A DNA stretch of 64,000 nt. Origin: Eledone cirrhosa. Taxonomy: Eukaryota. Numbering within the stretch: position 1 is the first letter of the stretch; the number at the start of each line of letters is the position of its first letter. The notes beneath the pieces are model-generated. The model saw only the letters and a list, made by a program, of their open reading frames with translations, was not told the DNA's origin and did no database searches. The position numbers and the translations under genes are program-made. Positions 34,634-48,246 of this stretch are shown piece after piece. The stretch spans positions 339,698,001 through 339,762,000 of the forward strand of contig OZ024743.1 in assembly GCA_964016885.1 (NCBI GenBank), written 5' to 3'.

Positions 34634-34820
34634 ATAGGAACGAGTAGGACCCCGACGGCTGAGCTCAAGCCGTTTCGACGGCTAATTCTGGATTAGCCGT
34701 CGAAATGGCTTGAGCTCAGCCGTCAGGGTCCTACTCGTTCCTATTACCCACTCTACTACCCTAAGTATTGAGTACTTTGGTGGGTTATGGTCCACCTGGT
34801 TCCTTACCACATTTCCTTCG

Positions 34821-36202: not shown

Positions 36203-37584
36203 CAATTTACCTGTTATTATTTTGGAATTAGCACAATCGTTAGAGCATTGCTCAAAATACCTTGCAGTATTTCGTTACGGCCCTTTCAAATCTTGCTAAA
36301 GGATTCGATAAAATGTAGCATCTATCAGATACTGGAATCGGTTTTGTGCGAATTTTAGAAATCTAATTTTGTGAAACACTGGTAGTATGTTCAAAAATCT
36401 TCACATAAAATTTGTGTAGTGTGTGATGCAAATGAAGTTAAGAGTTATATACTGTGACTTTCCTTGAAAATGTTGACATTTTTATCGATAATGTTATCTA
36501 AGAGATGTATTTAGATATGTTGAATATTAAGGTATATCAGCCTCCTGAGTCATATCCACAGGCTTTGCGCAGCTAGTATCTCTCGGCATGCATTGTAGTT
36601 AATGACAGCTCTTTGATAATACTACCGACATTTTCTGTGTGATGATAATGTCGAGATAAACTGTAGACGATATGAGTTGTGTTTGGTTGATTGTTCTTAG
36701 AAGCACATTTGTAGTAACACCTCATCAGGAAATATATATATAAACGTTGTCGGTGTAGTAGTTGTAACAGCAGCACCAATAAAAGAAGGCGAAGAAGAAG
36801 CAGGACCTAAATAACCACATTCCCCATTATTAGTAGACATGTTAGTTATTTTATAGAAGCAAAAGAAGAAAGAAAGACTGTCTGCTTCCTAATATATACA
36901 AGAGCCAAACATTATTCTATGGCTTTTGAAAGATAGACAGATACAGTTGTAATTTGTTATCGAGTTATTTCTGTATACCTTTTTTCTATTTGGGCCTAAG
37001 ATTTCGAAACCTCTTTTTTTAACCGGGTAGTTCTATTTTAATGTTATTTCTCTGACAAACACCAAATTAATACTTCAGCAGTTTTTACAAACATAGTTGA
37101 ACCCACCAAACTTAATTTAAGAATATAAATAGAACGTTTGCTAACTTTAGTGAAAGAGCAATCAACAAAGTATGTGACCCTTGTATGCTGACTAGCTATT
37201 TAAAGTAGATGTAACTGTAGCGGTTGTCTCCCTTGTTTTGATTGGGATCTAGACGGGAAGTGGAACCCTTTCTGCAACTTCCGGTCAGAGCCCTATAAAA
37301 CTAACAACGTTAAGCTTCCTTCCTCTCTCTTTGCCTTTTCGGCACCAGGTCAAGAGTCTTCTCATTTGGCTCTGCCATTAATTTGGCCAACAGGCGCCTG
37401 GCTAAGGCCAGGCGCCCTCTGCCAGCCGCGTTTGCCTGGCAATCAAAACGGTAACTACTAACTTTGTTTCATTCTAACATCTATCTTTGACATGTCAAGT
37501 ATTCTATCTACCGTTAATTAAATATTATATACACAAACATTGTCTCGTTTTGTTACATTCATGCAACCAGTAATCCCGCTATAT

Positions 37585-37616
37585 TGGTAACCCTGACGTG
37601 ATACGAACACGCAGCC
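37585..37616 (+). other. Extended tRNA-Trp primer-binding site
   Basis: TGGTAACCCTGACGTGATACGAACACGCAGCC versus the reverse complement of a metazoan tRNA-Trp(CCA) 3' end, TGGTGACCCCGACGTGATTCGAACACGCAGCC (recalled). Confidence 0.85.
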
Positions 37617-37809
37617 GTTCATCGCTATAAGTGGTCACCCCCAAAAAAAGAAAAAAATAGCACATCTGGTTTTGTGAGTAACATTACGAATACACAGCAA
37701 ATTTAGCGACAAACTATGAAAATACTCAAGGACACGCACACACGCACATGTGGAATTCGCACAGACATACTTTTTCTCTCACGCATCAATTAACTGTCGC
37801 ATTTCACCA

Positions 37810-37990
37810 ATATATATATATATGTTTCTCGTTTCTTACAACGAACACTTTCAAAACAAAAAAAAACATTTCACGATATATATATATGTTTCTCGTTTCT
37901 TACAACGAACACTTTCAAAACAAAAAAAACATTTCACGATATATATATATGTTTCTCGTTTCTTACAACGAACTCTTTCAAAACACACAC
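37810..37990 (+). repeat. Three ~62-bp tandem repeats inside the LTR element
   Basis: Unit ATATATATATGTTTCTCGTTTCTTACAACGAACACTTTCAAAACAAAAAAAACATTTCACG. Confidence 0.9.
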
Positions 37991-40191
37991 AAAAAAAAAA
38001 AGAAATTTGATATTCTTTAAAAAACATTTCAACAGGAACATTTATTTTCGATGAACCATTGCCTTTTGTTCTTCGTTTTCTTCATCGTTCAAGTTTTTTT
38101 TTTTTTTTTTTTTTTTTCCAAAAGTTCACACCTATAATTATGCTGATTGAAGCCTTTCTTTTTCATCATTGTCACTTTCAAAATTGCACTATCATTTTCT
38201 CGCGCGTTAGAAATATTTTTTTTTCAACCTTGTATTGGCACGTGTAGGCAGCATAAATTCTCGATTCACTGAGATGTCTTTACTCACAGACAGCCGCACG
38301 CCATTTATCACCAGGGATTCTTCAGCCTTAAGCTATATTCTTCTATTTGCCGGTTTATAAATTTACAATGTAAATTTACCGTTGATAACCGCGCATTTAT
38401 TAGGAATGCTTATTTCTCTGGTCGCTGGCCTCTTGACCCTTCCAGGTCAACGCATTCTCAACATCGACCATCAACTTCGGCTGCTATTTCTAGCACTTTG
38501 CGCAACTCATTTTTTCTAAAAAAAAAAATTTTTTTACTGTGAATTTAAACACCGAAAACGCTCACTCAGCGAGACAACAGCAGCAGCAACAGCAATACAT
38601 CAATACAGCTTCACCAAAGCCAGAGAATTCATTTTTGCAGCACTCTTCCTGTGAGAAAATCCATTCGGAGGTTGGAAATTTCACGATATACCACAGAACA
38701 GAAACCACCTGCATTCATTCTCTGGAACACACTTTCTTTCCTGCTGTCATGTGATTACACACCTGTGAACTATATTTTGAGCTTTGAGCTCTTCTATTAC
38801 TTTTACTTTATTACATTGTGTCTTTGGGTGATGGATAGATGGATGTCCAGTCGTTCTCTGGCCAAGAGCGGTTGGTTACCTTGATATCTATCATTGATTT
38901 TTCCAGACATTCTTTTGTCGTAATTTCCATGCCTGTTACAACATTCTCGCCAACTTGCTACATATTTTCATTTCGATTTTTATACACTAAAATTCTGGCG
39001 GGAGGTTATGTAGCGGTTGTCTCCCTTGTTTTGATTGGGATCTAGACGGGAAGTGGAACCCTTTCTGCAACTTCCGGTCAGAGCCCTATAAAACTAACAA
39101 CGTTAAGCTTCCTTCCTCTCTCTTTGCCTTTTCGGCACCAGGTCAAGAGTCTTCTCATTTGGCTCTGCCATTAATTTGGCCAACAGGCGCCTGGCTAAGG
39201 CCAGGCGCCCTCTGCCAGCCGCGTTTGCCTGGCAATCAAAACGGTAACTACTAACTTTGTTTCATTCTAACATCTATCTTTGACATGTCAAGTATTCTAT
39301 CTACCGTTAATTAAATATTATATACACAAACATTGTCTCGTTTTGTTACATTCATGCAACCAGTAATCCCGCTATATAACTATTTAAAGCAGACATACTA
39401 TATATCTAAAACAGAATTATCGAAAAAGACGCCGAAAAAAAGTTGTATAACCTGTTCCCAAGTTATACAACTCTAAAAAACAATGCATCTAAGATTGTTT
39501 GATATTCAGACCTACCAACCCCTAAAAACCCAAACGGGGAGTACCATGAAAAAAAGTTCCCCAAAACGGGGAGAAATGAGGCAAAATTGGAAGATTTTAC
39601 ATGATGAAAGCTATACCCATTTTCACAAGAGAAGACATCTCCCACCCACCCTAAAGTGGGTGAGAGATCTGCCTATCGGGATGAGGAGAGTTGACAGGTT
39701 TGGATATAGGTAGAATTGGTACAACGCTGGCCAGTGTTACAGTGTTCAGTTATGTACCTTCATGTTCTGTGTCAAAATCCCGCTGGGGTCGATTATCATT
39801 CTTTCAGAGTCATGTACTGAGTTGATTAAGTCAACTACCCTACTTCTAAATCTGAGGCATTTCTAAAATTATAAGGGTGGTGGAATGGCCGAGTCGCTAA
39901 AGCGTCTGGCTCTTTACGTTCTGATTTTAAATCCCACCGAGATCACCTTCACCTTCATCCTTCCAGAGTCGATAAAATAAAGCACTGATCGAATGAGATC
40001 AATTTCCGCAGCTGAAATATACCGCTTAAACAGGGGTGTAGAGTTCGTCCATCCCTTCCTCTTTCCCTTTATTTTTGTTATTTGATATTTTTCTTCCTGT
40101 TTATTATGTGGAAATATCTATATATCTTACACGTTATATTTTATTATCTATTTCTAATTCTTGCTTTCCATCTTTTTGTTGTTGTTTTTAG

Positions 40192-42973: not shown

Positions 42974-43259
42974 AGAAAAAGGGATGAAATCGAAAATGCA
43001 ACTGAAGTCTTATTTTTTTTTTTTTAAATATATATATTTATTTGGTTCCTTTACCGGTTTCGCAGTTCTTCTGCTTTTCAAAAGGTGAGTTGAGATGGAG
43101 GGTCTGTGGTTTTTCTCGAAAAACCATAGACCCTCCATCTCAACTCACCTTTTGAAAAGCAGAAGAACTGCGAAACCGGTAAAGGAACCAAATAAATATA
43201 TATATTTAAAAAAAAAAAAATAAGACTTCAGTTGCATTTTCGATTTCATCCCTTTTTCT
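42974..43259. repeat. 142-bp-arm palindrome carrying mirror-image U3:A8 hammerheads
   Basis: Arms 42974-43115 / 43118-43259, one mismatch. CCTT-TTGAAAA-GCAG/CTGC-GAAA-CCGG-TA-AAGG at 43148-43185 and its mirror at 43048-43085. Confidence 0.93.
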
Positions 43260-43378
43260 ATATATATATATATATATATTTATACATTTATACATTTATA
43301 TGTATACATATATATATATATGTATACATATATATATATATTTATACATTTATATGTATACATATATATATGTATACA

Positions 43379-43415
<37 letters not shown>

Positions 43416-43605
43416 GTATACATATATATATATACATATATATATATATATGTATATATATGTATACATATATATATATAATATATATATATTATATATA
43501 TATTATATATATAATATATATATATTATATATATAATATATATATATATATAATATATTATATATATATATATATAATATATTATATATATATATATATA
43601 TAATA

Positions 43606-43995
43606 TACGATATTAAATAAATGGAAACTATATTTATAAAACCATATTTATTTCATTATATATATTTCAGGGATATCATATTAACAATATGTTATGCCTT
43701 CTTCAGACAAAATACAATATAGACAGTTTTATAAATAAATAGATTTGACATACCGTTCAACATCGACTTGTATTTGGAAAGTTGATTTGGCAGTGAAATC
43801 AAATCAACTGCCAAATCAACTTTCCAAATACAAGTCGATGTTGAACGGTATGTCAAATCTATTTATTTATAAAACTGTCTATATTGTATTTTGTCGGAAG
43901 AAGGCATAACATATTGTTAATATGATATCCCTGAAATATATATAATGAAATAAATATGGTTTTATAAATATAGTTTCCATTTATTTAATATCGTA
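43606..43995. repeat. 189-bp-arm palindrome carrying mirror-image hammerheads
   Basis: Arms 43606-43794 / 43807-43995, 12-nt spacer, one mismatch. CTGAAGA-AGG..CCT-GAAA-TATATA-TA motif at 43649-43714 (-). Confidence 0.93.
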
Positions 43996-44089
43996 AATAT
44001 ACTCTAAATACTTGTTGAGTGCTTTTATATCAGTTATAAATATTTACTAGTTGTAACCCAACAATTTAAATATAACTTTACATATATAT

Positions 44090-48035
<3,946 letters not shown>

Positions 48036-48246
48036 ATGTGTATGTTACATGGCCCATAACAAAGACTTGAAAGACATTAGGCAAACTGGCTGCCGACAAC
48101 TCTATTGTAATAATCTTCCTTTTGAATATTTACTACGAATATATCTTTTTTATATATGTAATTAACAGAAACATCAATGAATTGTTGTTTATGATAAAAT
48201 AACATTTTTTATACTGAATATTAGTTGGTTTTCATTTATTGACGTA

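What the first reader, a model, noticed from the sequence alone, without database searches (positions are those of the whole stretch)
37585..37616. 32-nt tRNA-Trp copy at the PBS with a mismatch opposite m1A58
Established: plus-strand strong-stop synthesis normally halts at m1A58 of the primer tRNA, giving an 18-nt PBS. Seen: complementarity to recalled tRNA-Trp continues 14 nt through the T-arm into the variable loop. The only mismatch in the extension is its first base (37603, A instead of T), exactly opposite A58. Inference: a fixed record of reverse transcriptase reading through and misincorporating at a tRNA modification, possibly now serving as an extended priming site.
Basis: partly seen in the sequence, partly recalled or inferred. 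Interest (0 to 1): 0.85.

Follow-up and report, generated by a model that had tools for sequence, protein, structure and literature searches.

The report
Over-long tRNA primer site in retrotransposon
About 500 copies of a small non-coding retrotransposon carry a 32-base match to the host tRNA-Trp instead of the usual 18, with one wrong base opposite tRNA position 58; this is likely an inherited scar of reverse transcriptase running past a methylated base, now likely kept to help bind the primer, and a longer version of something already reported for the mouse MusD elements.

Summary
Confirmed. 37585-37616 is the primer-binding site (PBS) of a 2.16-kb non-coding LTR element (identical 368-bp LTRs, 4-bp target duplication). 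It matches host tRNA-Trp positions 76-45. The only mismatch beyond base 18 is A at 37603, opposite A58.

Across 499 family sites the base opposite 58 is A in 491, G in 8, never T. The 18-mer is repeatedly corrected to the host sequence, but the extension is not. So synthesis still stops at 58 each cycle, and the extension is inherited.

Other CCA-bearing tRNA-Trp copies behind LTR ends show the same read-through, with 7 of 39 wrong at 58. A duplicated LTR-end/PBS just downstream likely records how the overrun was captured. The 13 pairing bases carry no shared variants in 83 copies (flanks 162 of 380 sites, p=0.0009), which suggests selection.

The idea is not new: MusD has a 22-nt PBS with a fixed mismatch at m1A58, read as misincorporation (bioRxiv 2025.05.12.650695). 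New here are the length, the gypsy/CsRn1-type host element and the population evidence. Function is untested.

The parts
37212..37215 (+). left target-site duplication (4 bp)
   Evidence: same 4 bases flank the right end at 39377-39380
37216..37583 (+). 5' LTR, 368 bp, starts TG and ends TA rather than CA
   Evidence: identical to the 3' LTR
37585..37602 (+). canonical 18-nt PBS for tRNA-Trp (positions 76-59), with two mismatches to the commonest host gene at 37589 and 37594
37603..37603 (+). A opposite tRNA position 58 (T expected)
   Evidence: A in 491 of 499 family sites, G in 8, T in none
37604..37616 (+). 13-nt extension complementary to tRNA-Trp 57-45 (T-loop, T-stem 5' strand, variable loop)
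   Evidence: 13 of 13 match to host genes; no shared variant in 83 copies picked by their PPT
37617..37641 (+). duplicated LTR-end-like stretch followed by a decayed second PBS start (37632-37641); likely scar of the capture event
   Evidence: older copies L190 and L153 keep the second PBS start as a perfect match (12 nt in L190); the same layout occurs in a coding family and in metagenome contigs L192/L198
37642..38996 (+). non-coding internal region
   Evidence: no ORF of 150 aa or more; no convincing DNA or translated match to the coding elements compared
38997..39005 (+). polypurine tract
   Evidence: 3 nt before the 3' LTR; 545 exact PPT-LTR junction matches in the genome
39009..39376 (+). 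3' LTR, 368 bp
39377..39380 (+). right target-site duplication

Best explanation
The 32-nt tRNA-Trp match is the primer-binding site of a non-coding LTR retrotransposon family, and its extra 14 bases likely come from one ancestral plus-strand strong-stop DNA that ran past m1A58, likely put A opposite it, and was captured into the element. Steps: (1) inferred: the reverse transcriptase of a CsRn1-type helper copied the primer to about position 45. (2) inferred: the overhanging end re-annealed upstream in U5 instead of on the PBS, which duplicated the LTR end and PBS start now at 37617-37641. (3) shown by copy comparison: since then the primer refreshes only positions 76-59 in a minority of insertions, while the A and the extension pass down from the element's RNA, so synthesis still stops at 58. 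(4) inferred from conservation: the 13 pairing bases are kept by selection, most likely because they add pairing with the T-arm and variable loop of intact tRNA-Trp and so make up for the two mismatches in the 18-mer.
For: Match to host genes including the non-encoded CCA. 72 family sites with a host-type 18-mer still have A (70) or G (2) opposite 58, and C opposite 57 in 71, although many host genes have A57. Host-type PBS copies are scattered tips on the tree: 14 changes for 15 rows, shuffled mean 13.8. 39 non-family CCA-bearing tRNA-Trp extensions have T32/A3/G2/C2 opposite 58 and only host letters opposite 57; the 18 longest are not tRNA genes. Among the 18 unrelated single loci held, 16 end at positions 28-41, and two metagenome copies end at exactly 27, near positions 37 and 26 where RT-blocking methylations are common in tRNAs (PMC11417395, passages). 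An older copy keeps a 12-nt perfect second PBS start. A coding family with the CsRn1 Gag motif, 4-bp target duplications, similar TA-ending LTR termini, A opposite 58 and the same doubled junction has an eroded extension and a host-perfect 18-mer in 38 of 38. Extension sites with shared variants: 0 of 13, against 85 of 245 in the leader (p=0.005) and 162 of 380 in all flanks (p=0.0009). Computed duplex with unmodified tRNA: -27.7 kcal/mol for 18 nt, -55.9 for 32 nt. A GCD14/TRMT61A-type gene is in the genome.
Against: m1A58 on this host's tRNA-Trp was not measured. Among the 18 unrelated single loci, transversions at 58 versus 57 were 3 of 18 versus 0 of 18 (p=0.11). Most read-throughs put the correct T at 58, so A is a minority outcome. 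One host gene copy has T58, and it could have templated one of the three non-family A cases. With only 28 copies the conservation test was not significant (p=0.06). The six non-tRNA bases right after the extension are as conserved as the extension and can pair with it in a predicted hairpin (z=-1.6, not significant). Most Trp-primed families do without an extension (20 of 30 held loci), so it is not needed for priming. The end at 45 coincides with my pattern's limit, so a pause there is not shown independently.
Confidence: 0.7

Rival explanations
1. The extension came by read-through with the correct T (as in the L125 coding family), and the A is a later point mutation at the one position where m1A58 cannot pair, fixed in a founder.
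For: A coding family also extends to 45 and has T in 10 of 10 held copies. Position 58 is the only site in 58-45 with a shared variant inside the family (G in 3 of 83), so it is free to drift. T is the majority outcome of read-through (32 of 39).
Against: Other read-through copies are wrong at 58 in 7 of 39 cases, with all three wrong letters, and never carry a non-host letter at 57. The A is shared with the related coding family that also has the doubled junction, so it is at least as old as that split. MusD shows the same site-specific fixed mismatch.
Confidence: 0.15
2. The origin is read-through, but the extension is kept for a leader RNA hairpin or packaging signal and never pairs with the tRNA.
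For: A predicted hairpin pairs the PBS and extension with 37617-37641. The partner bases are equally conserved, and two linked C-to-T changes in 12 of 83 copies keep pairing as G-U. Host-corrected PBS types make the hairpin more stable (-18.8 and -21.1 versus -14.7 kcal/mol), which could by itself explain why they found no lineages.
Against: The hairpin is not more stable than shuffles (z=-1.3 and -1.6). The 8 bases in its loop are also free of shared variants and match the tRNA. The 32-nt tRNA duplex is computed to be far more stable than the hairpin.
Confidence: 0.2
3. The extension was templated without error by a tRNA-Trp variant with U at 58 (no methyl stop), from a gene now lost or missing from the assembly.
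For: One of 65 matches is a gene copy with T58, so such variants arise, and they would be read through easily.
Against: That gene has A57, while the family has the G57 complement in 82 of 83 copies. No G57/T58 gene was among the 65 matches. It cannot explain the G and C cases at 58.
Confidence: 0.06
4. A tRNA gene, pseudogene or tRNA-derived SINE inserted at this place (Helenus-like or cqgypsy_1-like).
For: Such insertions exist (PMC10886601; PMC3286476).
Against: The copy includes CCA, is antisense, is exactly in register with the LTR end, has no A box or 5' half, and its B-box equivalent is broken at 58. ARAGORN and Rfam find nothing here. Many unrelated LTR ends carry the same in-register copy, ending at different tRNA positions.
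Confidence: 0.02

Closest known systems
Mouse MusD/ETn 22-nt PBS with a conserved mismatch at m1A58 (Steinberg et al., bioRxiv 10.1101/2025.05.12.650695; section 9 part 1 and passages read)
   Same: Complementarity runs past base 18, with a fixed mismatch opposite m1A58 that the authors read as RT misincorporation. The most common PBS has mismatches, and perfect ones are scattered over the tree (Cullen and Schorn, PMC7472051, section 13).
   Different: Here 32 nt, not 22; tRNA-Trp; a non-coding gypsy-type element in a 3-Gb genome; a duplicated LTR-end/PBS scar; and direct evidence that correction stops at 59. PMC7472051 states that Ty3-type elements strictly inherit their PBS, whereas this family shows primer-derived correction in 19 of 83 copies.
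CsRn1-clade Ty3/gypsy elements (PwRn1, PMC2582038, passages)
   Same: tRNA-Trp PBS and 4-bp target duplication; coding relatives carry the CX2HX9CX3C Gag motif and PR-RT-RH-IN.
   Different: The window element has no coding region and its LTR ends in TA. The paper's PBS alignment is a supplementary image that I could not see, so published CsRn1 PBS lengths were not checked.
Read-through of m1A58 in retroviral plus-strand synthesis (HIV-1; PMC8599865 and PMC13191261, passages)
   Same: The stop at m1A58 is the norm, and longer products occur.
   Different: There the longer products are described as unable to complete synthesis and integration; here they are found integrated, and some founded families.
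Extra primer contacts outside the 18-mer: ASLV U5 with the tRNA-Trp T-loop (PMC13191261), Ty1 extended PBS (PMC3681743), Drosophila gypsy second site (PMC1635307); passages only
   Same: Pairing with the primer's T-arm beyond the acceptor end.
   Different: Those contacts are separate boxes of element sequence; this one is contiguous with the PBS and likely copied from the primer itself.
Helenus TRIMs (Kojima 2024, PMC10886601, parts 1-4 of 6 read)
   Same: Non-autonomous LTR elements with tRNA-derived sequence; 4-bp target duplications in animals.
   Different: The Helenus tRNA sequence lies inside both LTRs and keeps the A and B boxes; this one lies outside the LTR, antisense, once only.

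Membership tests
Non-autonomous LTR retrotransposon | two LTRs, PBS, PPT, target-site duplication, no coding capacity | tested here: met
TRIM (strict size) | shorter than 1000 bp (PMC10886601) | tested here: not met
   2161 bp
CsRn1 clade | PBS for tRNA-Trp | tested here: met
CsRn1 clade | 4-bp target-site duplication | tested here: met
   also L125 and the L294-L301 family
CsRn1 clade | CX2HX9CX3C Gag motif | tested here: inconclusive
   absent because the element is non-coding; present in 8 of 8 copies of the candidate helper family, whose link to the window rests only on termini and leader
CsRn1 clade | placement in an RT phylogeny with named CsRn1 elements | not tested
   no reference sequences were held
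MusD-type extended PBS | complementarity continues past base 18 | tested here: met
   13 of 13 further matches
MusD-type extended PBS | family-wide fixed mismatch opposite position 58 | tested here: met
   0 of 499 sites have T
MusD-type extended PBS | silencing by 3' tRNA fragments, relieved by PBS mismatches | not testable with these tools
   needs small-RNA data or a reporter; no RNA holder was listed
Helenus / TRIMp3 | tRNA-like sequence with A and B boxes inside the LTRs | tested here: not met
   ARAGORN found 0 genes in the window and Rfam no tRNA match in 37000-39600; the tRNA copy is outside the LTR

The most novel reading that the evidence does not exclude
The element turned a reverse-transcription error into a primer filter. 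It keeps two mismatches where 17-22-nt 3' tRNA fragments would bind, and 13 extra pairing bases most of which only an intact tRNA can reach, so it primes well while escaping fragment silencing or out-competing its helper for primer. In addition, genomes hold an in vivo fossil map of the primer's RT-blocking modifications (58, about 37, about 26), readable from integrated over-run ends.
Probability: 0.25. Interest if true: 0.75.

Novelty: new variant of a known kind. Interest (0 to 1): 0.5.

Why it matters
It shows that plus-strand products that overrun m1A58, described as dead ends in HIV-1, can be integrated and can found large families. It also gives a clean natural test of where strong-stop synthesis halts in a gypsy-type element: correction reaches position 59 and never 58. 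[quoted passage not shown] A practical point for annotation: such CCA-bearing copies can be mistaken for tRNA pseudogenes, and their ends and errors can be mined for tRNA modification sites in species without tRNA-seq.

Tried and rejected
ARAGORN on the window and Rfam on 37000-39600: no tRNA. A host gene matching the family's 18-mer type: none among 5 matches. Viral contigs: 0 matches. Sequencing runs: no RNA holder listed, so no reads were laid. Integrase-style target duplications at the ends of the 18 long single read-throughs: one weak candidate in 18, so the idea that integrase joined these tRNA-copy ends is not supported. Twenty stretches fetched upstream of integrase matches held no PBS (wrong offset, no result). 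The raw-count conservation test (3 of 364 cells, p=2e-6) was dropped because copies are not independent; it was replaced by shared-variant sites (p=0.06 with 28 copies; p=0.0009-0.04 by threshold and flank set with 83 copies, 7 of 90 loci left out for lacking the region). No DNA similarity beyond the termini links the window element to any coding family tested. Reading 37617-37623 as a decayed complement of tRNA 44-37 needs two indels and could not be told from the U5-duplication reading. The tree sample included 8 loci picked for G at 58, and has two long branches that join. Ten literature searches found no description of a 32-nt PBS in CsRn1-type elements; older retroviral papers, Repbase and the PwRn1 supplementary image are outside what I could see. 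Earlier-finding look-ups by words and by sequence gave nothing, apart from two loosely related notes.

Full report
The element. The finding lies in a 2161-bp LTR element at 37216-39376, with two identical 368-bp LTRs, a 4-bp target duplication, a polypurine tract and no ORF of 150 aa. The genome is 3.0 Gb. The family is large: 545 exact PPT-LTR junctions and 499 exact PBS-plus-extension sites. LTRs range from 100% down to about 70% identity to the window copy.

The observation. Host tRNA-Trp genes were found by pattern (65 matches; 30 fetched and run through ARAGORN). 37585-37616 is complementary to positions 76-45 of the mature tRNA, including the CCA that the genes lack. Positions 57-45 match 13 of 13, and 37603 is A opposite A58. 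Of the 65 matches, 62 have A58, two with C58 are CCA-tailed copies, and one gene copy has T58 together with A57. Two further mismatches lie inside the 18-mer, opposite 72 and 67; no host gene has both.

Inherited, not re-copied. In 83 copies picked by their PPT rather than their PBS (7 of 90 loci left out), 64 have the element-type 18-mer and 19 have the host base opposite 72; the base opposite 58 is A in 80 and G in 3. Genome-wide, only 8 of 499 sites are not A, and all 8 are G. Among 72 sites with a fully host-type 18-mer, none has T opposite 58 and one has T opposite 57, although many host genes have A57. On a tree built without the PBS region, host-type copies are scattered: 14 changes for 15 rows, the same as shuffled labels. 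So the primer overwrites positions 76-59 in some insertions, stops before 58, and the corrected copies rarely found lineages. The same scatter was reported for ETn/MusD (PMC7472051, section 13).

Independent read-throughs. Patterns that exclude the family found 41 CCA-bearing extensions, 2 of them older family members. The other 39 have T32, A3, G2, C2 opposite 58 and only host letters opposite 57. The 18 longest are not tRNA genes, sit behind several different LTR-like ends, and differ from host genes almost only at 58. Among the 18 unrelated single loci held, the ends fall at 28-29 (3), 35-41 (13) and 44-45 (2), and 5 are wrong at 58; a transversion-only test against position 57 is not significant (p=0.11). 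Eleven metagenome contigs show the same thing in other sequence contexts, two ending at exactly 27 and three wrong at 58. m1G37 and m2,2G26 are common RT-interfering marks (PMC11417395); that this tRNA carries them is inferred. In vitro, m1A gives both arrest and context-dependent misincorporation (PMC4787781). The genome has a GCD14-family gene. Extensions are not the rule: 20 of 30 held Trp-PBS loci have none.

How it was captured. After the extension come an LTR-end-like stretch and a second, decayed PBS start. Older copies keep that second start as a perfect match, 12 nt in L190. A recently active coding family (38 matches; Gag motif CX2HX9CX3C, RT, 4-bp duplications, LTR pairs 98.8-100% identical) shares TA-ending termini, A opposite 58 and the doubled junction, but its extension is eroded and its 18-mer is host-perfect in 38 of 38 (leader alignment reached by 2 of 5000 shuffles for L190 and 15 of 5000 for the window). 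It is the best candidate helper or sister, on termini and leader only. Two other coding families carry clean extensions to 45 and to 37, and L192/L198 show the PBS-extension-second-PBS layout in a coding element from a metagenome contig. I infer that an overrun plus strand re-annealed upstream in U5 and so duplicated the junction.

Is it used? The 13 pairing bases have no variant shared by two or more copies, against 85 of 245 leader sites (p=0.005) and 162 of 380 flank sites (p=0.0009); with a threshold of three copies, p=0.02-0.04. With 28 copies the test gave p=0.06. Position 58 does vary. The computed duplex with unmodified tRNA goes from -27.7 kcal/mol (18 nt, two mismatches; host-perfect -36.3) to -55.9 (32 nt). 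Against this, the six bases after the extension are as conserved as it is, and a weak hairpin could account for part of the signal. By tRF3b numbering the two mismatches fall at guide positions 18 and 13, the regions where mismatches relieved silencing of MusD reporters; carrying that over to this host is inference.

Known or new. Steinberg et al. (bioRxiv 10.1101/2025.05.12.650695) report that MusD complementarity runs to base 22 with a conserved mismatch at m1A, which they ascribe to misincorporation. Ten searches found no 32-nt case in CsRn1-type elements, no account of the doubled junction and no use of such ends as a modification map; the library lacks older retroviral papers. An unchecked note from this scan (e1-7807674) describes a 45-base tRNA-Thr case in another genome, which suggests that such over-long sites recur.

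Verdict. Real, and best explained as an inherited read-through scar (about 0.9 for read-through origin, 0.75 that RT put the A there, 0.55 that it is kept for primer pairing). A new variant of a known kind; interest 0.5.

Noticed in passing
L122:608-700 and L122:1455-1501; L123:585-680: Copies with the PBS-extension unit in tandem at a 46-nt period. In L122 the 3' LTR itself includes a PBS, the extension and the duplicated LTR end, as if priming at the downstream site had moved the LTR boundary.
   Followed up: partly
L031 / L091 (G000:C1:273133322): An LTR, a tRNA-Trp copy to position 28 with G opposite 58, then an inverted copy of the same LTR: looks like an overrun plus strand that folded back on itself.
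   Followed up: partly
L192 and L198, 70 nt upstream of the PBS: U5 of a coding CsRn1-like element holds decayed extra tRNA-Trp copies, one with C opposite 58.
   Followed up: no
L208, L223: Relatives of the family with the 40-nt extension, in which the extension seems broken up by A-rich insertions; extensions can decay.
   Followed up: no
L127, L128, L129: Coding family with an extension to position 37; L128 differs from its two relatives at both 58 and 47, as expected if it was re-copied from another isodecoder. L128 also holds a nested copy of the window family.
   Followed up: partly
G000:C4:353.39-353.49 Mb and C4:277.41-277.44 Mb: Tandem clusters of tRNA-Trp genes (about 45 and 11 matches), mostly A57 in the first; one copy has T58.
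   Followed up: partly
L082 / L116: Mini-element in which the extension is joined almost directly to the PPT, in tandem with a second unit; both have G opposite 58.
   Followed up: no
G000:C14:21.37-21.46 Mb: Thirteen family sites spaced about 4-6 kb apart (one gap of about 37 kb), all with a host-type 18-mer: a tandem amplification that inflates the host-type count of 72.
   Followed up: no
window 43240-48200: About 5 kb of almost pure AT microsatellite; the long ORFs listed there are artefacts of it.
   Followed up: no
window 34634-34744 and 44689-44804: Two copies of a short element with long inverted arms (MITE-like).
   Followed up: no
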